This document shows, in pieces, positions 6,624 to 60,060 of a stretch of 64,000 bases of DNA. The notes beneath the pieces were generated by a model, which was not told the DNA's origin, did not search any database, and was given only the letters and a program-made list of their open reading frames with translations. The DNA comes from a virus. Its lineage: Duplodnaviria; Heunggongvirae; Uroviricota; Caudoviricetes. The stretch lies in IMG/VR virus record IMGVR_UViG_2703718819_000006. One strand, given 5' to 3'. Every line of letters begins with the position of its first letter. Within the stretch, counting starts at the first letter, position 1. The translations under genes were made by a program, and so were the position numbers.

Positions 6624-7502
6624 TTAAATTTTTACATTGGTCAGTGCAGCGATAGCCTTATCGTGCTTATTCGCCAGAGAGCAGTACCACTTCACACGGG
6701 TACGTACTGCGTCTTTGTTCTGTACAGTACCAATGTTTTCAACAACGATACCTGCGTTGTCGCCGCCATACAGACCAGTAACGCCGTTCTCTTCAGAAAG
6801 GTGCAGACAGTAGATATCCGCTTTGGTGGAGTCCACAACCGGAATGAAGTCGTTTACGATAAACGGAACGCCGTTATGGCACAGCATTGGTCGACCGAAG
6901 TTTTCCATCATGATTTCGGACGGGCCTACGTTTACAGTTCGCAGCAGCGCACGATATGCGCGAAGATGCTCAGAACGCATCATGATGCAGTCTGCGCCCA
7001 GATCTTTAACTGCGTCGACCAGTTCGTCGAACATAGAGAAAGTCATGGATGCGCCGGAGATGTCGATCTTCTGATCGTCATGCATCAGCTTCGGAATACC
7101 GTCGAAGGCTTTGTTGTTAGTGGTGGAGTCGCCAACAATCAGATTGCGACGGAAGGCACGAGCAAGACCTTTGACTTTCTGACGAACCTGGATAGCCAGC
7201 TGGTTGTTGGTATCAGCCATAGTGGTAGCCAGGAATTTGTCGACGTCAACGTCGCCAGCCAGAATGCGCAGCTTCGCAACTTTCTCTTCGAAGGTTGCTG
7301 CACCTTCGGTGATGGTGTCGTTCACATCAATGAAAGTAGCTTCGCTCAGCGTTTTTTCACGGTTGTACAGATATGCCTTTGAATTAATTTTCATAAAAGG
7401 CAGGATGGCAAACAGGTCATCGCGATCGATGATAGTTTCGATCACACCCTGTTCAAGTTCGTTGTTAGACAGCTTTTCAGCTTCTTCACGCAGTAATGGC
7501 AT
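6624..7502 (-). CDS. major capsid protein
   Basis: 292 aa ORF directly after scaffold-like coiled-coil protein and portal; highest-expression-style context with strong terminator downstream. Assignment by gene order, not motif. Confidence 0.55.
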   Translation of the reverse strand: MPLLREEAEKLSNNELEQGVIETIIDRDDLFAILPFMKINSKAYLYNREKTLSEATFIDVNDTITEGAATFEEKVAKLRILAGDVDVDKFLATTMADTNNQLAIQVRQKVKGLARAFRRNLIVGDSTTNNKAFDGIPKLMHDDQKIDISGASMTFSMFDELVDAVKDLGADCIMMRSEHLRAYRALLRTVNVGPSEIMMENFGRPMLCHNGVPFIVNDFIPVVDSTKADIYCLHLSEENGVTGLYGGDNAGIVVENIGTVQNKDAVRTRVKWYCSLANKHDKAIAALTNVKI

Positions 7503-10042: not shown

Positions 10043-11294
10043 GAGAACCACCAAGAATAACACGGTTTTTGACTGGATACCTACGATGTACTGGATAGCC
10101 CAATGCGTCTGCACTATGCTCAATGCCACCTGTCTTATCCATATCTCGTGTTCCAGGCTTGTAGATGACTTTTTCCAGTGAATCAATCAAATGCTTGCAC
10201 TTCGGATCGATATACAACCGGATATCTCCAGATGCGGTCATCAGCATTCGGTTAACAGCATTAACACGATCCGCAATTGGCGGGTGCTTTTTCGAATAAT
10301 CGACACGTAAGAATCCCTTCTCTTTGAATATGTCGACGTCAGACTCCCCGCGAGCATGTTGGCGATAAGCACCTGCCGGATCTGGAAATACCGTTATCTG
10401 TGATTTCCAGCGCCAGAAGCGTCTCTCAAGCTCATCACAAACCTCTGCCGTGTTAGAGGAAAAGAGCACCAGTTCATCAATTGCCCATAGCTCACCGTTT
10501 GGCTGAGGTTGCAAAATTACGGAAGACATCGGGTCAATGTTGAAGTCCTGCCCTACCCATATAGGCAACCGAGGGTTGAACTGAAGCGGTTTTACATGCA
10601 CGTTACGATCGAACGGGTAGTAAACGCGCCCGGACATATTTTCAAAGCTGGCCAGGTACTCCTGAGCGAACGATTTAGGGTCCATATCGTTCTTAGCAGC
10701 TTCAATTTCCGCCGTAGGCACAAACGGAGAATCAGCAGTTACAAACTGCCAGCTCTTCCACTGTCCCTTTCTTTGCAGCTCTACGTTCTGGCCTATAGTC
10801 CACAGTTTGTGAAATTCCGAGAAGCCTTTTGGCGTACCAATGATCAGTGCACCGCCGCGTGTCGATGAAAGGGTAGGTCGTAGCACCTTGTACCAGGTGT
10901 CAGCCTTCATATCCTGAAATTCATCAAGCACTACAAAATGCAATGCAACGCCGCGCAGAGTGTCAGGCTTATCAGCACCTTTGAGGGCGATCTCCGAACC
11001 GTTCTTCAACACGATTGTCATCGTGGTGTCGTTCTTTTTCCTAACCCACTTACGAGGCAGAACTTCCTGTATATCGTCCCACAAAATCTGGCGAGCCATC
11101 TGGTAAGTAGGAGCGACATACCAGACCCTTTGCTTTTTTTCCTTTGCCGCCGCACGAATAATAGTGGAGATCGACAACCGGGATTTTCCCCAGCGTCGAC
11201 CAGCACAAACAACTTTAAATCGATGCGGAGACTGGAAGACTTTCATCTGTCCAGAATGCAGTTGCACAAGACTGAGCGAGGACGGGATTGCCAT
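10038..11294 (-). CDS. terminase large subunit
   Basis: 418 aa; N-terminal Walker A (VVCAGRRWGKS), Walker B-like VLDEFQD, C-terminal nuclease-like region; preceded by small-terminase-like gene. Confidence 0.8.
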   Translation of the reverse strand: MAIPSSLSLVQLHSGQMKVFQSPHRFKVVCAGRRWGKSRLSISTIIRAAAKEKKQRVWYVAPTYQMARQILWDDIQEVLPRKWVRKKNDTTMTIVLKNGSEIALKGADKPDTLRGVALHFVVLDEFQDMKADTWYKVLRPTLSSTRGGALIIGTPKGFSEFHKLWTIGQNVELQRKGQWKSWQFVTADSPFVPTAEIEAAKNDMDPKSFAQEYLASFENMSGRVYYPFDRNVHVKPLQFNPRLPIWVGQDFNIDPMSSVILQPQPNGELWAIDELVLFSSNTAEVCDELERRFWRWKSQITVFPDPAGAYRQHARGESDVDIFKEKGFLRVDYSKKHPPIADRVNAVNRMLMTASGDIRLYIDPKCKHLIDSLEKVIYKPGTRDMDKTGGIEHSADALGYPVHRRYPVKNRVILGGSR

Positions 11295-11926
11295 TATTCG
11301 TCCTCCCCTTCACTTCCATCATCTGTCGCATCAAATTCGCTTAGAGCTTCTTCTTCCAACGTCTCAAGCAATTCGTCATCGATGATTTCAGGCTCGTCGT
11401 CTTCCTGACGTAATTTCGCCACCTGGGAAGGCGTAAGCTCACCAAATACCAGGTTCGGAATTTCTTCCTCGTCATTTTCCGCATGATCCATGCCCAATGC
11501 TTTGGACGAAACTTCAAAGCATTTTGCAAGGGTATTACTGGCTCTCTGTAAGCTCTTGAGAGAATCCTCAATCGCCCCTAAAGGCTTACCCTCACGTTTG
11601 GCCGTAGTGACTTCGACCATCACCATCTGCCCCAACGCATACGCCCAGCCGTCATAACGTGTACGACGTTCTTCTATCTTTTCCGCACGGGCTTTAGCGC
11701 GAAGCTCTGCGTCAGATTTAAGAGACTCACGAACCATCTTCCCAACAGAGTCCGCGCCTTTCTCTAATCCTCGCTTTTTGAAATGTCTGGAGAGTGTTTC
11801 ACGACGAATGCCGTACTCTTCCTCCAGCTTTGAGAGTGTATATTCGCCTGACGTCCATTTGGCTTCAGCTTCGGCCCACTCCGCTGGTGTCAGGCGAGTT
11901 TTTACCTCGTCTTTTTCGACCGTCAT
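11294..11926 (-). CDS. terminase small subunit (HTH N-terminus, acidic C-terminus)
   Basis: 210 aa; N-terminal HTH-like segment (TLSKLEEEYGIRRETLSRHFKKRG), strongly acidic tail; stop overlaps TerL start. Confidence 0.5.
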   Translation of the reverse strand: MTVEKDEVKTRLTPAEWAEAEAKWTSGEYTLSKLEEEYGIRRETLSRHFKKRGLEKGADSVGKMVRESLKSDAELRAKARAEKIEERRTRYDGWAYALGQMVMVEVTTAKREGKPLGAIEDSLKSLQRASNTLAKCFEVSSKALGMDHAENDEEEIPNLVFGELTPSQVAKLRQEDDEPEIIDDELLETLEEEALSEFDATDDGSEGEDE

Positions 11927-12022
11927 AGATCCCTCTAAAACACACAGAGCGCGTCCATGCGCTCTAAAACAACTTGTTTACTGCATCTGCTAACCAACTT
12001 GTTTTCTGGGGTGTTTAATTAG

Positions 12023-12119
12023 GTCTGGCATGTCTTACGAAGCCTGCTTCCGTATATATATTTAATAAGTTACTTATTATTTATATACAGAAGCAGGTCT
12101 TTAAATAAGCTCCCAGACC
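12023..12119. repeat. nested long palindrome (core 12043-12098, arms CCTGCTTCCGTATATA / TATATACAGAAGCAGG around AT-rich palindromic loop; outer GGTCTGG/CCAGACC)
   Basis: Seen in sequence; near-identical copy at 42072-42130. Confidence 0.7.
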
Positions 12120-12121
12120 GA

Positions 12122-12388
12122 TTACATCACCAGTAACTTCGCTTTGGCTCGACCTAAAGTAGTTAACCCAAGAGTTCGGCGGTGATAGCGATTGTCACTG
12201 CGTTGGCGCGTATGCCCTTTCTCCACCAGCCCCTTTTTTATCAGAGCGCGAATTGAGAACTGGATACTTTGCTTGGTTGTCTTGTACGGCAAAACTTCAA
12301 GCAATTCGTCCAGGTCAAGTAGATGACCTCGCTCATAACCGAGATTGAGCGTTTTGATGATGTCCTTTTGTTTATCGGTTAACGTCAT
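12122..12388 (-). CDS. small basic protein, possible DNA-binding regulator
   Basis: 88 aa, Lys/Arg-rich; no motif-level assignment. Confidence 0.3.
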   Translation of the reverse strand: MTLTDKQKDIIKTLNLGYERGHLLDLDELLEVLPYKTTKQSIQFSIRALIKKGLVEKGHTRQRSDNRYHRRTLGLTTLGRAKAKLLVM

Positions 12389-35595: not shown

Positions 35596-37278
35596 TTTAA
35601 CGCGTTTGAAAACGTATACGCTGACTGTGATCCCTGTGTCTTCAAACTCGTTGGTAAACGACTTCCCTCTGGCATAAACGTAATTATCCATCGTCATCCA
35701 GTCCAGTATTGGCGCAGTGCCCGGCAATACTGCTACAAGACGCCCGCCGACTTTCAGATGCCCCAGCGCAGCCAGCGTGTGCTCTCTATGACGACCAAGC
35801 GAGTACGGCGGGTTCATAACGATTTTGTCGAACTGATAACCTACGTTGTCCTCAGACCACTTTATGAAGTCGCAGCAAATCGTGTTCGTATACCCTTTTC
35901 CGCGCAGGATATCAGCGAAGAGAGGTGCGATTTCTATGCAGGTAACATCTTCCAGATCGGCGTTGATATAGGCCAGAAGATCCCCACGTCCGGCTTGAGG
36001 CTCCAGCAGCTTCTCACCAGGCTTCAATTCAGTGGCTCTGGCAACGTACTCAGCAATCAAGCGTGGGGTAGGGTAGAACTGGTGTGATTTTGTATCCGGT
36101 ATTAATCCGGTAGCCACAATCGTATTTAGCGTATGGCCGATCTCATACGGGAACTGCCAGTGCTTTTTCTCCTGCACGCCGCCAATGAAGCTCAGTGTGC
36201 GCTCAAGCTCTTCCACCTGCGACTTCTGGAGAGCTGAATCAGAGAAGTACCATACGCCTTTGTCTTTGCTTAATCGCCCGTCACGAAGCGCAGTGCGAAC
36301 CGGCACGGAGATCGTCTTCTGGATTAACCCGAACTGCTTTGGTGCCCGTGTTTTTGGCGCGGTGCGACATGGCGCGGGGATTGCAGCAGGCATACTGTAA
36401 GCCAGCACCTCATTCAACTTCCAGGCCACGTCAGGATGTATTTCAAAGTGAACGTTGCCGTTCTTGAACATCTTCACGCGCATTAGATTTCCATCGACGT
36501 TCATCCAGTCACCGGTCTGGCAGTCGTTTGCCCGATACGCAGCTGATAGCACCTCAGCAGTGCGGTTGATGGTAATAAATTCTTTGTGCGCGAAGAAATG
36601 AAGCAAGACACGCAGATCGTCGATATAGTCCTCTTTGCGATAGTTCACACTAACGCTGTCCCGCCAGAAATCAGAAATGCAGTCAGCGATTATCAGACGT
36701 TCGCTGAAACCGTTTGTCTTATTTGTCTTGTGCGCAGGACTCAGCGCCTTAAACAAGCCATACACGCGCTCAGAGAGATATTTGTGCCTGTCATTCAGCA
36801 AATTAAGCATCGTGGGTATGACCGTTTCTGCTTTGAACTCCGGTACACCAACGAACTCTTTAACCTTCATCTGGTAGCCGGTTCTGTCAGTTTTGATGAC
36901 TTCCTGTTTGCCCTCTATAAACTGCTCGCGCCACTCATCTCGACGGGAAGCTGGCATGATCAGCAAAACGTTAGTCATGTCCGTGACCTTCCTCCAGTAC
37001 TCGGCCCAAATATTCTGTTTCACCCATTCCAGATCGACTTTATCCAACCAACCTCGATTTAAACGCGAGCGATCTTCATCTGGTCGATGGTTTAGTCTCA
37101 GCAGGCGATTAATCATGTTGTGGCGTTCGTCGCCATAAACGAAGTCGTGTACCTGATACATGAAGGCGATCTCTTTCTCGCACTCGGCCACAATTTCGTG
37201 GATGACGTTCATTTCCTGCCGATAGTCGATAGCAGTGTTTGAGTTGGCATCGTCGATGATGGAAAGGGCTGTATTCAT
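35593..37278 (-). CDS. N6-adenine DNA methyltransferase with large N-terminal domain of unknown function
   Basis: 561 aa; C-terminal FYPTP...EPQAGRGDLL...NPPYS motifs (SAM-binding and catalytic NPPY). Confidence 0.6.
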   Translation of the reverse strand: MNTALSIIDDANSNTAIDYRQEMNVIHEIVAECEKEIAFMYQVHDFVYGDERHNMINRLLRLNHRPDEDRSRLNRGWLDKVDLEWVKQNIWAEYWRKVTDMTNVLLIMPASRRDEWREQFIEGKQEVIKTDRTGYQMKVKEFVGVPEFKAETVIPTMLNLLNDRHKYLSERVYGLFKALSPAHKTNKTNGFSERLIIADCISDFWRDSVSVNYRKEDYIDDLRVLLHFFAHKEFITINRTAEVLSAAYRANDCQTGDWMNVDGNLMRVKMFKNGNVHFEIHPDVAWKLNEVLAYSMPAAIPAPCRTAPKTRAPKQFGLIQKTISVPVRTALRDGRLSKDKGVWYFSDSALQKSQVEELERTLSFIGGVQEKKHWQFPYEIGHTLNTIVATGLIPDTKSHQFYPTPRLIAEYVARATELKPGEKLLEPQAGRGDLLAYINADLEDVTCIEIAPLFADILRGKGYTNTICCDFIKWSEDNVGYQFDKIVMNPPYSLGRHREHTLAALGHLKVGGRLVAVLPGTAPILDWMTMDNYVYARGKSFTNEFEDTGITVSVYVFKRVK

Positions 37279-37381
37279 AATTGCACCATTAAGAAGTGAT
37301 TTGTTTAATGGTGCAATTATTTCAAAAATGAAAAGGTACTAAATAGAAATAAACAGGCAATCCTTCAAATAAAGGCATTGG

Positions 37382-41735: not shown

Positions 41736-41990
41736 TCATTGTGATTGATTATTTTCTCTACCATGTAGTTGAACATTCAAGGCAAACACCTCATTGATCA
41801 ACTCACCTAAAAGCTGTTCAACAAGTTCGCGATGCTCGCCAAGATGCAAGCACTTAATTGCCCATTCGTACAAGTTGAAAGCCTGCTCACGATCTTTCAT
41901 CATTTCACGAGCCTGGGCCAGAAAATCGCTCTCTACGAGCGCAACGACATTAGTCGGGTATGACATGTTGGTTTCCTTAAAGTGGTTCAT
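41736..41990 (-). CDS. hypothetical protein
   Basis: 84 aa. Confidence 0.35.
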   Translation of the reverse strand: MNHFKETNMSYPTNVVALVESDFLAQAREMMKDREQAFNLYEWAIKCLHLGEHRELVEQLLGELINEVFALNVQLHGRENNQSQ

Positions 41991-42071
41991 AAAATCGATT
42001 TTAAAGCGTCTGGGAAGGGGTTCTAGTGGATTCTGTAGTGATGTTCAGGTCTGGAGTCTCTGATACAAAAC

Positions 42072-42130
42072 AGCCTGCTTCCGTATATTAATAATTAATA
42101 TGTAGTTATTTATATATACAGAAGCAGGCT
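42072..42130. repeat. long palindrome AGCCTGCTTCCGTATAT..ATATACAGAAGCAGGCT (copy of 12043-12098)
   Basis: Seen in sequence; same arm sequence and same single C/T asymmetry. Confidence 0.7.
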
Positions 42131-42151
42131 AATTACAGACGCCAGAACAAA

Positions 42152-42745
42152 CTAAGCAACCTTCTTTGATGGTCTTTTTTTCCTGATCACATTCGCAGGA
42201 TCATACCCTCCCAGACTTTTCATGACGTCCAAAGGGATCTTGCTTATAGAGTGCCCAGCGTCCTGACAGAATCCTCGAAAAACAACGAGCATACTGCCAC
42301 CTGGGTTGATGTTTACTTCTACCTGACCCAGATTGACGTCAGGCTCGACAAACGCTACGCGGCCACCAGACAGAATAATCGTCTCATTCGCACACTCTGT
42401 TGCACGCTCATACCACTTTGTATCTAGGGATTGAGGAATTAGCATCACTGTTGTAACTCCGCGAGCCTGCTCACGTATAGCAGCATCAATCCAGGGGGAG
42501 ATTTTGGAGTAGGGTGGATTGAGGAAGGCAATTGTACCTGGCTGTCCCCATTCAGATTTCAAAGCATCACGCTCAATGCCTATGAAATTAGGCAGCTTTG
42601 CGTTGTCCTTGTTGCAGGCAACGTCAACATCAAATGTCACTCCAAGATAACGTTGAATGGCAGAAAACAGCCAATCAGGTGTTCTCCAGAGGTCACGAAG
42701 AGAGTTGTCGCGCTTTCGCTGTTTGATTTTTTCGGCTGCAATCAT
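42152..42745 (-). CDS. phage-type N6-adenine DNA methyltransferase (Dam-like)
   Basis: 197 aa; WRTPDWLF...LNPPYS motifs. Confidence 0.7.
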   Translation of the reverse strand: MIAAEKIKQRKRDNSLRDLWRTPDWLFSAIQRYLGVTFDVDVACNKDNAKLPNFIGIERDALKSEWGQPGTIAFLNPPYSKISPWIDAAIREQARGVTTVMLIPQSLDTKWYERATECANETIILSGGRVAFVEPDVNLGQVEVNINPGGSMLVVFRGFCQDAGHSISKIPLDVMKSLGGYDPANVIRKKRPSKKVA

Positions 42746-58521: not shown

Positions 58522-59577
58522 ATGAGCGAAAACGGCAATAAAAACATAGCGATCGTTGAAGCATTTTCAGAAACAGATAAAAAGACAGGCGAAGTTGTTA
58601 CGTTGGTTCCTAACACTAATAACACTGTTCAGCCTGTTGCTTTGATGCGTCTGGGCCTCTTCGTTCCGACGCTGAAATCGACATCCAGAGGAAGAAAGGG
58701 GCAAATGGTCTCTATGGATGCCTCTGCTGAACTCAAACAGCTGTCTCTGGCAAAAGCCGAAGGGTACGAAGACATAAGGATCTCTGGCCTTCGGCTTGAT
58801 ATGGATAACGACTTTAAAACGTGGGTGGGAATAATCCACGCGTTTGCCAAACACAAGGTCGTTGGCGATACTGTCACGTTGCCGTTCGTTGAGTTTGTAA
58901 GGCTGTGTGGCATTCCGACCGCCAGGTCATCAGCGAAGTTACGCAAACGCCTGGACAGTTCGCTAAGCCGTATTGCCACAAACACCATCTCGTTCCGTAG
59001 CAAAGGCTCTGATGAGTTTTACGTAACGCATCTTGTGCAAACGGCAAAATATAGTGTCAAGCACGATACGGTCGAACTGAAAGCAGATCCCAAGATTTTC
59101 GAACTCTACCAGTTCGACAAAAAGGTTCTTCTGCAACTCCGGGCTATAAACGAACTCTCAAGAAAAGAATCCGCTCAGGCGCTTTATACTTTTATTGAAA
59201 GTTTGCCGCCTGATCCGGCACCAATATCACTAGCCCGTTTACGCGCCAGACTTAATCTGACAAGTCGCACTATTACTCAGAATGCGACGGTAAGAAAGGC
59301 TATGGAACAGCTGCGAGAGATAGGATATCTCGATTACACGGAAGTTAAGCGCGGAAACTCGGTCTACTTCGTCATCCACTATAGGCGGCCAAAGTTACGC
59401 CAGGCACAAATATCAACAAAAATCGATAATGATGAGACGGAATATAGCCTCCCAGATGAGAATCAAGATGACATTATCGACGTTGTGCCTGACGAAAAAG
59501 AAGGCAAAATGGTCATGTTGAGTAAAGAAGAACTGGCACTTCTCGAAGAGTTGCGCAAGGCAAAGACTCGCAAATAG
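58522..59577 (+). CDS. iteron-binding replication initiator (Rep)
   Basis: 351 aa plus-strand ORF flanked on both sides by iteron arrays with DnaA box and AT-rich tract; assignment by architecture. Confidence 0.6.
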
Positions 59578-59579
59578 CC

Positions 59580-60060
59580 CAACCACTGTAGTTAGTAGTA
59601 AGGCTCACTATCCACTGTAGTGAGCCTTACTTATATCTGTAATTCGCTATCCACTATAGTGAGTATCGTTATCTGTTGATAACCACTGTAGGCAGTAGAA
59701 TGCAAATACTGAATTAAATGTTAGTGATCACTAACACTGATGAAACAAGGGCTGCGAGGTTAGTGGTCACTGGGTATCTTGGAAAATTTACTGTCTATAG
59801 TGGTTGTTGTCGCCCTCATCTTTGAGCGTATCCACTGTGGCGAGTGGATATCCACTGAAAACAGCAAAGGCTTACTCACCATAGTGGATACCCGCTGGAC
59901 ATCTCACTCCAATACTCACCATAGTGGTTGTTTGATGCGAATGAAAGGCTGTCTACTCGCTACAGTGGTTAGCAGATATGTAGGAAGGTTTTGTTACTGA
60001 CTACAGTGGATAATGAGCTGGATACGAATGCGGTGAGCAGACTACTCACCGCAGTGGTTG
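59580..60060. repeat. downstream iteron-like cluster (CCACTGTAG / CCACTATAG cores in both orientations, at least 10 units)
   Basis: Seen in sequence; includes palindrome TAAGGCTCACTATCCACTGTAGTGAGCCTTA at 59600-59630. Confidence 0.65.

What the first reader, a model, noticed from the sequence alone, without database searches (positions are those of the whole stretch)
12023..12119. Two near-identical ~60-bp perfect palindromes 30 kb apart (12043-12098 and 42072-42130)
Both have arms CCTGCTTCCGTATAT.. / ..ATATACAGAAGCAGG around an AT-rich palindromic centre, with the same single C/T asymmetry (a G-U wobble in RNA from one strand). Copy A lies just upstream of the terminase/morphogenesis operon; copy B lies just downstream of a Dam-like methyltransferase. 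They are much longer than ordinary terminators. They could be bidirectional terminators marking operon borders, cruciform-forming replication or recombination sites, or processing sites for a structure-specific nuclease (several RuvC-, SbcCD- and ParB-like nucleases are encoded here).
Basis: seen in the sequence. Interest (0 to 1): 0.55.

Follow-up and report, generated by a model that had tools for sequence, protein, structure and literature searches.

The report
Repeated long hairpins at operon borders
The two look-alike palindromes are real copies of a conserved ~100-bp hairpin that sits at three operon borders of SSU5-type phage-plasmids and most likely stops or insulates transcription, so it is a tidy but fairly ordinary regulatory feature.

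Summary
Each has 15-nt arms (14/15 paired), a partly self-complementary AT-rich 25-nt centre, and an outer inverted motif GGTCTGG…CCAGA(C/A)C (unit ~100 bp). The window is an SSU5-like phage-plasmid.

The family has three copies per genome; the third, C, lies outside the window, upstream of the DnaB helicase/primase module. About 800 enterobacterial plasmids carry it, including 256 of 5,426 complete E. coli genomes, and no E. coli chromosome.

In this window and in SSU5, each copy starts ~20-25 nt after the stop codon of a same-strand gene and 80-120 nt before the next gene. Pseudomonas nickie-like phages have differently sequenced long hairpins at the orthologous A and C positions.

Published RNA-seq of the 98%-identical plasmid Cyrano/pLF82 shows a 20- to >1000-fold drop in transcript across copy C, and only 2-6-fold across copy A plus its leader. 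Copy B cannot be tested because its upstream gene is silent. B and C have a U-run after the hairpin; A does not.

Best reading: long-hairpin terminators or insulators at module borders, with A leaky or atypical. The arm sequence is conserved beyond what termination needs and does not covary, so a DNA-level role (protein site, origin, nuclease target) remains possible.

The parts
12043..12097 (-). Copy A, inner palindrome. 15-nt arms CCTGCTTCTGTATAT / ATATACGGAAGCAGG as read on the - strand, with a 25-nt AT-rich centre.
   Evidence: RNA fold of the 111-nt unit: -46.4 kcal/mol on the - strand (z -9.1) and -41.0 on the + strand.
12022..12119 (-). Copy A, full extended imperfect palindrome, including the outer motif GGTCTGG (12022-12028) / CCAGACC (12113-12119).
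12034..12042 (-). Tail after hairpin A in the sense direction: CUUCGUAAG. It has only 3 U in 9, so it is not a canonical terminator U-run.
   Evidence: None of 11 unique A-type variants has at least 5 T in 9 in the sense direction; 5 of 11 do in the antisense direction.
42074..42128 (-). Copy B, inner palindrome. Same arms as A, different AT-rich centre.
   Evidence: (I3).
42048..42148 (-). Copy B, extended unit with the outer motif GGTCTGG (42048-42054) / CCAGAAC (42142-42148).
42065..42073 (-). U-run directly after hairpin B in the sense direction: CUGUUUUGU, 6 U in 9.
12122..12388 (-). 88-aa ORF (phrog_900) whose stop codon is 24 nt before copy A. The predicted fold is a small winged helix.
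11294..11926 (-). terS-like 'DNA binding domain' gene (phrog_867), the first gene of the packaging and morphogenesis operon. It starts 116 nt after copy A.
   Evidence: Cyrano annotates it as the terminase small subunit.
11935..11966 (-). Small GC hairpin plus T-run (TAGAGCGCATGGACGCGCTCTG TGTGTTTTAG), just before the terS start codon.
   Evidence: The same arrangement occurs in Pseudomonas phages nickie and hairong.
42152..42745 (-). Dam-family adenine methyltransferase gene. Its stop codon is 23 nt before copy B.
   Evidence: PF05869, E 6e-38.
41736..41990 (-). 84-aa ORF (phrog_5343), the first gene after copy B. It starts 83 nt downstream of the hairpin.

Best explanation
The two palindromes belong to a three-copy family of long intergenic hairpins, each placed at a border between the main gene blocks of SSU5-type phage-plasmids.

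- Copy A: ParB/ABC-ATPase block | packaging and morphogenesis.
- Copy C (outside the window): lysis and plasmid-maintenance cargo | DnaB helicase-primase replication block.
- Copy B: nucleotide metabolism and Dam | accessory and regulatory block.

Proposed mechanism. When the upstream gene is transcribed, the RNA folds into a ~23-25-bp hairpin with a G+C-rich base (CCUG/CAGG). In B and C this hairpin is followed directly by a U-run and releases RNA polymerase. Genes expressed in the plasmid state are thereby prevented from reading into silent lytic modules. Copy A lacks the U-run. It probably only pauses or partly stops transcription, or protects the upstream 3' end. A second small terminator in the terS leader does the rest.

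Shown:
- position, structure and U-runs;
- the transcript drop across copy C in a close relative.

Inferred:
- that the hairpin causes that drop;
- that B behaves like C;
- that A is leaky.
For: - Position. In this window and in SSU5 each copy begins 22-24 nt after a same-strand stop codon and 80-120 nt before the next start.
- Stability. The hairpins are very stable in RNA: -46.4 and -39.5 kcal/mol, z -9.1 and -5.5.
- U-run. A sense-side T-run of at least 5 in 9 occurs in 16/18 unique C variants and 6/11 B variants, including this window's B (CUGUUUUGU).
- RNA-seq of Cyrano/pLF82 (PMC9928086, S1 Table, log2(fpkm+5)). CYRAN_30 reads 5.7-10.4 and CYRAN_31 reads 2.3-4.2, across a 193-nt spacer whose only strong hairpin is copy C. 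CYRAN_123 to CYRAN_1, across copy A plus its leader, drops 2-6-fold.
- Distant relatives. Pseudomonas nickie-like phages have long hairpins of unrelated sequence at the orthologous C site (-39.5 and -43.3 kcal/mol, z about -7). Three double compensatory changes separate nickie from hairong.
- Not mobile DNA. The element is never chromosomal: 0 of 395 places in E. coli. Every IMG/VR palindrome recovered could be assigned to the A, B or C context.
- Wobble. The mismatch in both window copies is U.G on the transcribed strand, and that strand folds better.
Against: - Copy A, the main subject of the finding, has no sense-side U-run in any of 11 variants.
- The Pseudomonas C hairpins and a 64%-identity relative (L145) also lack a U-run.
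- In some E. coli lineages the gene upstream of copy C is divergent, so there is nothing to terminate, yet the hairpin is intact.
- Inside the enterobacterial clade the variable arm positions do not covary beyond shuffled controls (score 0.098 against 0.107).
- The arms are nearly invariant across three paralogous sites and across relatives down to 64% protein identity. A plain terminator does not need that much conservation.
- In the SSU5 lineage, copy B has C.A rather than U.G mismatches on the transcribed strand.
- The stems are about twice as long as those of usual intrinsic terminators.
- The RNA-seq evidence is gene-level counts from a relative. It does not map 3' ends and does not cover B.
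Confidence: 0.55

Rival explanations
1. DNA-level site. The palindrome is a binding site on duplex or cruciform DNA for a phage-encoded protein, with two 15-bp half-sites, an AT-rich centre and outer CCAGAC motifs. One version is a set of three lytic replication origins, comparable to SPP1 oriL/oriR. Another is a common operator that switches the three modules together.
For: - The arms are conserved as sequence rather than only as pairing. They are the same 15-mer at all three sites, and CCTGCTTCT-TATA persists in a relative whose flanking protein is only 64% identical.
- There is no covariation above controls.
- The stem base CCTGCTT…AAGCAG(G) is shared with the A site of Pseudomonas phages, whose terS is only 32% identical.
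- The CCAGAC motif is kept downstream even where its upstream partner is missing.
- Copy C stays with the downstream replication block (phrog_2500, DnaB, primase) whatever lies upstream, including divergent genes.
- A small winged-helix protein is encoded right next to A.
Against: - There is no GC-skew change at A or B.
- In hairong the C-site arms changed by compensatory substitutions while the A-site arms did not. That argues against one shared sequence reader in that clade.
- The constant placement ~20-25 nt after stop codons in this window and in SSU5, and the conserved U-run, are not explained.
- No isolated half-sites occur elsewhere in the window.
- No binding protein has been identified.
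Confidence: 0.2
2. RNA processing or stability element. The long duplex is cut by host RNase III, as at the T7 intercistronic R sites, or blocks 3' exonucleases. It would set the ends and half-lives of the flanking mRNAs rather than terminate transcription. This may apply mainly to copy A and to the Pseudomonas hairpins.
For: - There are about 23-25 bp of nearly continuous duplex with small bulges, plus outer helices.
- The element is intercistronic and sense-oriented, with G.U on the transcribed strand in this window.
- A and the Pseudomonas hairpins lack U-runs.
- The expression drop across A is modest.
Against: - A drop of more than 1000-fold across copy C is more than processing usually gives.
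- No cleavage data exist.
- Rfam has no matching family, only weak generic hairpin hits.
- This reading does not explain the conserved arm sequence either.
Confidence: 0.12
3. Recombination or nuclease target. Hairpins or cruciforms extruded from the palindromes are cut by the phage SbcCD-like or RuvC-like nucleases. This would create ends for T4-style recombination-dependent replication. Alternatively the repeats act as crossover points for exchange of modules.
For: - The genome encodes SbcC/D-like, RuvC-like, UvsX/RecA, UvsY, gp32-like, UvsW and RNase H functions.
- Homology between genomes at site C begins at the 5' edge of the palindrome, and at least seven different neighbours occur upstream.
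- Copies exchange sequence. C of an E. coli lineage is identical to A of another contig, and A and C share lineage-specific centre variants.
Against: - Gene order A-C-B is the same in all the complete relatives compared, with no inversions or deletions between copies.
- The 63.8-kb deleted plasmid that was inspected keeps normal neighbours at C.
- A 55-bp interrupted palindrome is short for SbcCD attack (general knowledge, not tested here).
- A variable cargo region has to end somewhere, so the sharp boundary at C is weak evidence.
Confidence: 0.08
4. Packaging site. Copy A is the pac or cos site recognised by terminase, and B and C are extra or pseudo sites.
For: - A lies 116 nt upstream of terS.
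- The SSU5 GenBank record is opened inside palindrome A.
- Several IMG/VR contigs end in or near copies.
Against: - Three near-identical copies would be harmful for a cos phage.
- Cyrano's matching record start is a re-annotated plasmid laid out like SSU5, so it is not an independent end.
- Contig breaks are expected at any 55-100-bp repeat.
- pMT1, which is not known to act as a phage (general knowledge, not tested here), keeps copy A.
- B and C sit at unrelated operon borders.
Confidence: 0.03

Closest known systems
Rho-independent (intrinsic) transcription terminators, including bidirectional ones
   Same: - Stem-loop with a G+C-rich base directly after a stop codon.
- U-run after the stem in copies B and C.
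- Strong fall in downstream transcript at copy C in a close relative.
   Different: - The stem is about 23-25 bp (55 nt) rather than 5-14 bp.
- It is embedded in a ~100-bp extended palindrome.
- The same arm sequence is kept at three sites and in hundreds of plasmids.
- Copy A has no U-run.
Phage T7 intercistronic RNase III sites (R0.3 to R18.5)
   Same: A family of related long hairpins placed between genes in the sense orientation of a phage genome. The duplex is long enough for RNase III.
   Different: Cleavage has not been tested here. T7 sites have a characteristic internal loop and do not terminate transcription. Here there are three copies and a U-run in two of them.
PeSL (promoter-early stem-loop) cassettes of T4-type phages
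   Same: Repeated regulatory hairpin units at the edges of variable gene blocks. The copies can recombine with one another.
   Different: PeSLs carry a conserved early promoter and flank many small ORFs. Here there are only three fixed sites, and a promoter-like sequence (TTCCAA-N17-TATCAT) was seen only downstream of copy C.
Enterobacterial intergenic repeat palindromes (REP/BIME, ERIC)
   Same: Imperfect palindromes of 35-127 bp in transcribed intergenic regions, able to affect mRNA ends.
   Different: There is no sequence relation. The element is never chromosomal (0 of 395 places in E. coli), is confined to three orthologous sites of one plasmid family, and shows no sign of mobility.
N15 telRL/tos protelomerase site and dispersed N15 centromere palindromes
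   Same: A phage-plasmid with a central palindrome flanked by further inverted repeats. Palindromes are dispersed over the genome.
   Different: No protelomerase is annotated, and the complete plasmid records inspected are circular. The spacer and half-site layout is different, and nothing links the element to partition.

Membership tests
Intrinsic terminator | Stable stem-loop with a G+C-rich base in the transcribed strand, downstream of a same-strand gene | tested here: met
   A is 24 nt after its upstream stop codon and B is 23 nt after. Fold energies are -46.4 and -39.5 kcal/mol on the - strand.
Intrinsic terminator | U-rich run immediately 3' of the stem | tested here: inconclusive
   B has CUGUUUUGU (6 of 9), so it meets the criterion. 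A has CUUCGUAAG (3 of 9), so it does not. Across variants with at least 5 T in 9: C 16/18, B 6/11, A 0/11.
Intrinsic terminator | Usual size: stem of about 5-14 bp and loop of 3-8 nt | tested here: not met
   The stem is 16 bp plus a 7-bp extension, with outer helices. The simple terminator scan does not call A, B or C.
Intrinsic terminator | Transcript abundance falls across the element | tested here: inconclusive
   Data are published gene-level RNA-seq of the relative Cyrano. The drop is 20- to >1000-fold across copy C and 2-6-fold across A plus its leader. B is uninformative because Dam is silent. No 3'-end mapping exists.
RNase III processing site | At least ~20 bp of double-stranded RNA in an intercistronic transcript | tested here: met
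   Predicted duplex of about 23-25 bp.
RNase III processing site | Cleavage by RNase III | not testable with these tools
   This needs in vitro cleavage or a comparison of rnc mutant transcript ends.
Replication origin | Strand-composition switch, or initiator-binding repeats next to an AT-rich unwinding element | tested here: inconclusive
   There is no GC-skew change at A or B. An AT-rich centre and repeated CCAGAC-like motifs are present, but no initiator is known.
Protelomerase target (telRL type) | Protelomerase gene present, and linear replicon with hairpin ends | tested here: not met
   No protelomerase appears in the Cyrano features listed for 24-108 kb; Cyrano 0.8-24 kb and most of SSU5 were not inspected. 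The PhiR41_1, pJN2-26, pMT1 and E. albertii records are circular.
Mobile palindromic repeat (MITE, REP, ERIC) | Many copies in varied genomic contexts, including chromosomes | tested here: not met
   0 chromosomal places in 5,426 E. coli genomes. Every IMG/VR palindrome recovered could be assigned to site type A, B or C.
cos/pac packaging site | Single site next to terS that defines virion DNA ends | tested here: inconclusive
   A is next to terS and the SSU5 record opens inside A. But there are three copies, Cyrano's start follows the SSU5 convention, and no virion read-end data were available.
Known RNA families (Rfam 15) | Match at or above a family's gathering score | tested here: not met
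   Only weak hits to miRNA-precursor-like hairpin models, far below gathering scores.

The most novel reading that the evidence does not exclude
The three palindromes are a common, sequence-specific signal read by a phage-encoded factor. In this reading the module borders are switched together at induction, in one of three ways:
- coordinated anti-termination or processing of the hairpin RNA;
- use as origins for lytic replication;
- use as entry points for the phage's SbcCD/RuvC-type nucleases to start recombination-dependent replication.

This would explain why the 15-nt arms and the CCAGAC motif are kept almost unchanged at all three sites, and across hosts from Escherichia to Yersinia, without covariation.
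Probability: 0.17. Interest if true: 0.65.

Novelty: new member of a known kind. Interest (0 to 1): 0.32.

Why it matters
SSU5-type phage-plasmids are common in clinical Enterobacteriaceae. The element was found in about 800 PLSDB plasmids and in 4.7% of complete E. coli genomes, and these plasmids carry resistance and toxin-antitoxin cargo.

A strong insulating hairpin between the plasmid-state cargo operon and the silent lytic modules would help explain how such elements express cargo without triggering lytic genes. The three conserved repeats also give fixed landmarks for annotating module borders and for understanding assembly breaks.

If the conserved arms turn out to be read by a phage factor, they would be a handle on the so far unknown lytic switch or lytic origin of this family.

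Tried and rejected
- Rfam search of both sites: only sub-threshold generic hairpin hits.
- GC-skew profile: no switch at A or B.
- Literature searches for SSU5 with palindrome, termini or PhageTerm: nothing.
- G.U against C.A strand bias as a test for RNA: A and C favour the transcribed strand, but B of the SSU5 lineage favours the other. Too few independent events, so the test is not decisive.
- Covariation test on 27 distinct arm pairs: not above shuffles.
- Physical genome end at A: Cyrano's matching start is a layout convention taken from SSU5, so this was rejected as independent evidence.
- MITE-like mobility: rejected.
- Protelomerase site: rejected. No such gene was listed in the annotated stretches inspected, and the complete plasmid records inspected are circular.
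- Deletion end-points at the palindromes: the one shortened plasmid inspected showed nothing.
- A third nickie copy at 98.1 kb shares one arm but does not fold (z +0.66), so it was not counted.
- Stenotrophomonas phage BUCTxx99 has no palindrome at the A position.
A sequence search against PDB found nothing.

Full report
**What is in the sequence**

The window is an SSU5-like phage-plasmid. It is 99% identical to CP053388 'Escherichia phage CMS-2020a' and close to PhiR41_1, Cyrano/pLF82 and SSU5.

- The two elements are at 12043-12097 (A) and 42074-42128 (B).
- Each has 15-nt arms, CCTGCTTCCGTATAT / ATATACAGAAGCAGG on the + strand, around a 25-nt AT-rich centre.
- The arm 15-mer occurs four times. 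None of 100 shuffles reached the observed 5 matches at up to 3 mismatches.
- They are not perfect palindromes. The arms pair 14/15, and the centre pairs only through a 7-bp mini-stem. A and B share 49 of 57 aligned positions.
- An outer inverted motif enlarges the units to 12022-12119 (GGTCTGG…CCAGACC) and 42048-42148 (GGTCTGG…CCAGAAC).
- As RNA the units fold to -46.4 and -39.5 kcal/mol on the - strand and -41.0 and -38.5 on the + strand (z from -5.5 to -9.1).
- A profile search finds no other copy in the window.

**Context**

All flanking genes are on the - strand.

- A lies 24 nt after the stop of an 88-aa ORF (phrog_900). That ORF has a predicted small winged-helix fold.
- A lies 116 nt before a terS-like gene, TerL and portal.
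- B lies 23 nt after the Dam stop codon and 83 nt before an 84-aa ORF.
- On the - strand the single arm mismatch is a U.G wobble.

**A three-copy family**

- A scan of IMG/VR with the arm sequence gave about 50 related elements. They fall into three context types.
- The third type, C, precedes a 241-aa ORF (phrog_2500) followed by a DnaB-like helicase and a primase. It lies outside this window. In SSU5 it is at about 33.5 kb.
- In SSU5 coordinates the copies sit at about 0, 33.5 and 78 kb. They separate packaging/morphogenesis/lysis, replication/nucleotide metabolism, and an accessory/regulatory block.
- About 800 PLSDB plasmids carry the element. They come from Klebsiella, Escherichia, Enterobacter, Yersinia (pMT1), Salmonella and Citrobacter.
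- 256 of 5,426 complete E. coli genomes carry it, always on a plasmid and never on a chromosome.
- Gene order A-C-B is the same in the complete relatives compared.

**Evidence on function: anatomy**

- In this window and in SSU5, every copy starts 22-24 nt after a same-strand stop codon. At C the upstream neighbour varies (10-24 nt after a stop) and is divergent in some lineages.
- A T-run of at least 5 in 9 directly follows the hairpin in the sense direction in 16/18 unique C variants and 6/11 B variants. This window's B has CUGUUUUGU.
- No A variant has such a run (0/11). This window's A has CUUCGUAAG. A has, if anything, an antisense-side run.
- Downstream of C there is a σ70-like promoter, TTCCAA-N17-TATCAT (read).
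- Downstream of A there are two copies of a separate 13-bp box, then a small GC hairpin with a T-run just before the terS start.

**Evidence on function: experiment from the literature**

PMC9928086 re-analysed RNA-seq (GSE154648) of E. coli LF82. Its plasmid pLF82 is phage Cyrano, which is 98% identical to this window. Values in S1 Table are log2(fpkm+5).

| Border | Upstream gene | Downstream gene | Drop |
|---|---|---|---|
| Copy C | CYRAN_30: 5.7-10.4 | CYRAN_31: 2.3-4.2 | about 20-fold to >1000-fold |
| Copy A + leader | CYRAN_123 | CYRAN_1 | 2-6-fold |
| Copy B | Dam (silent) | CYRAN_80 | uninformative |

- The C border is a 193-nt spacer whose only strong hairpin is copy C followed by UCUUUUAAAG.
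- The genes upstream of C (ParA, RelE/ParE and CYRAN_30) are among those the paper lists as expressed in the lysogen.
- This fits an insulating terminator between plasmid-state cargo and the silent replication module.

**Evidence from distant relatives**

- Pseudomonas nickie-like phages share the gene order. Their terS is 32% identical and their phrog_2500 about 28%.
- They have long hairpins of unrelated sequence at the orthologous C site, 7 nt after the PhoH stop. These fold to -39.5 kcal/mol in nickie and -43.3 in hairong (z about -7).
- Between nickie and hairong, three base pairs changed on both sides and one wobble became Watson-Crick. So pairing is what is kept there.
- They also have a weaker hairpin at the A site. 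Its stem base, CCTGCTT…AAGCAG, resembles the enterobacterial arms.
- They have the same small terminator just before terS.
- A Stenotrophomonas relative has no hairpin at A.

**What does not fit a plain terminator**

- Inside the enterobacterial clade the arms are almost invariant, and the few variable positions do not covary. At pair 11/30 the counts are U.G 12, C-G 5, U-A 5 and C.A 5. The covariation score is 0.098 against 0.107 in shuffles.
- The arms persist in a relative whose phrog_2500 is only 64% identical, and that copy has no U-run.
- The CCAGAC motif is kept 15-21 nt downstream even where the upstream partner is missing.
- Copy C is intact where the upstream gene is divergent.
- Copy B of the SSU5 lineage has C.A mismatches on the transcribed strand.
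- Copies also exchange sequence. C of an E. coli-lineage contig is identical to A of another contig, and A and C share lineage-specific centre variants. This is concerted evolution.

These points keep alive a DNA-level role (protein site, origin, nuclease or recombination target) or a sequence-specific reader of the RNA hairpin. There is no GC-skew switch at A or B. No Rfam family matches, and I found no paper that mentions the element.

**The record-end clue**

The SSU5 GenBank record is opened inside palindrome A, 10 nt from the dyad. Cyrano's record opens 1 nt away. Cyrano, however, is the plasmid pLF82, re-annotated and laid out for comparison with SSU5, so it is not an independent end. 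Several IMG/VR contigs end in or near copies, as expected for a 55-100-bp repeat. I give the pac/cos reading little weight.

**Verdict**

The best-supported explanation is a family of unusually long, sequence-conserved hairpins that terminate or insulate transcription at the three module borders (confidence about 0.55).
- There is direct though indirect-by-homology RNA-seq support at copy C.
- Anatomy supports the same role for copy B.
- Copy A is leaky or atypical.

This is a new member of a known kind. Interest is modest. It would rise if the conserved arms prove to be read by a phage factor.

Noticed in passing
window 11968, 11992, 21336, 22100, 23003, 23487, 26123, 26174, 30112, 38925, 39654, 49874, 63687: A 13-16-bp palindromic box, (A)AAACAANTTGTTT(TCT), occurs 13 times. 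Twelve copies are clearly intergenic; the 23003 copy overlaps the 5' end of a mechanically called 113-aa ORF. Most copies lie 6-45 nt upstream of a minus-strand start codon. Chance expectation is about 0.06. Two copies lie between palindrome A and terS. It looks like a dispersed operator or a phage-specific promoter box.
   Followed up: partly
window 11935-11966 (- strand); L130 ~7397-7430; L137 ~338-375: A small GC hairpin plus T-run sits immediately before the terS start codon. It is conserved in position in Pseudomonas phages nickie and hairong. This suggests the late operon is controlled by anti-termination or attenuation in its leader.
   Followed up: partly
outside the window; L125 6459-6513 (SSU5), L139 ~2320-2385 (PhiR41_1), L140 7160-7212 (Cyrano): This is the third copy (C) of the palindrome, upstream of phrog_2500, DnaB helicase and primase. 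A σ70-like promoter, TTCCAA-N17-TATCAT/TATGAT, lies about 70 nt downstream of it.
   Followed up: yes
L002 1-60 with L003 1-40 (SSU5 record ends); L124 end with L133 start (Cyrano): The GenBank records of SSU5 and Cyrano are both opened inside palindrome A, 1 nt apart. Cyrano's start follows SSU5's layout. Why SSU5's record starts there is unknown.
   Followed up: partly
IMG/VR loci L057 (site C) and L027 (site A); SSU5 sites A and C: Copies exchange sequence. The 55-nt C element of L057 is identical to the A element of L027. Within SSU5 and within the E. coli lineage, A and C share lineage-specific centre variants (AATACTAAG against AATAATAAG). This indicates gene conversion between copies.
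   Followed up: partly
window 12122-12388 (- strand): The 88-aa ORF just upstream of palindrome A (phrog_900) is predicted to be a small winged-helix DNA-binding protein (pLDDT 72.5). Its best, weak fold matches are the LexA N-terminal, DtxR, MecI and DnaD-N domains. In pLF82 RNA-seq it is induced independently of its upstream neighbour.
   Followed up: partly
window 59395-60058: This is a cluster of short inverted and repeated motifs (…CCACTATAGTGAG…). It lies next to where the plasmid RepA gene maps by comparison with Cyrano, so it is probably the plasmid origin iterons.
   Followed up: no
window 37277-37320: A perfect 16-nt inverted repeat, ATAATTGCACCATTAA / TTAATGGTGCAATTAT, with a 12-nt spacer. 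It overlaps the start codon of a 561-aa minus-strand ORF, so it may be an operator or a start-site-sequestering hairpin.
   Followed up: no
L132 3001-3058 (Yersinia pestis pMT1): The plague plasmid pMT1 keeps copy A upstream of its terS-like and TerL genes.
   Followed up: partly
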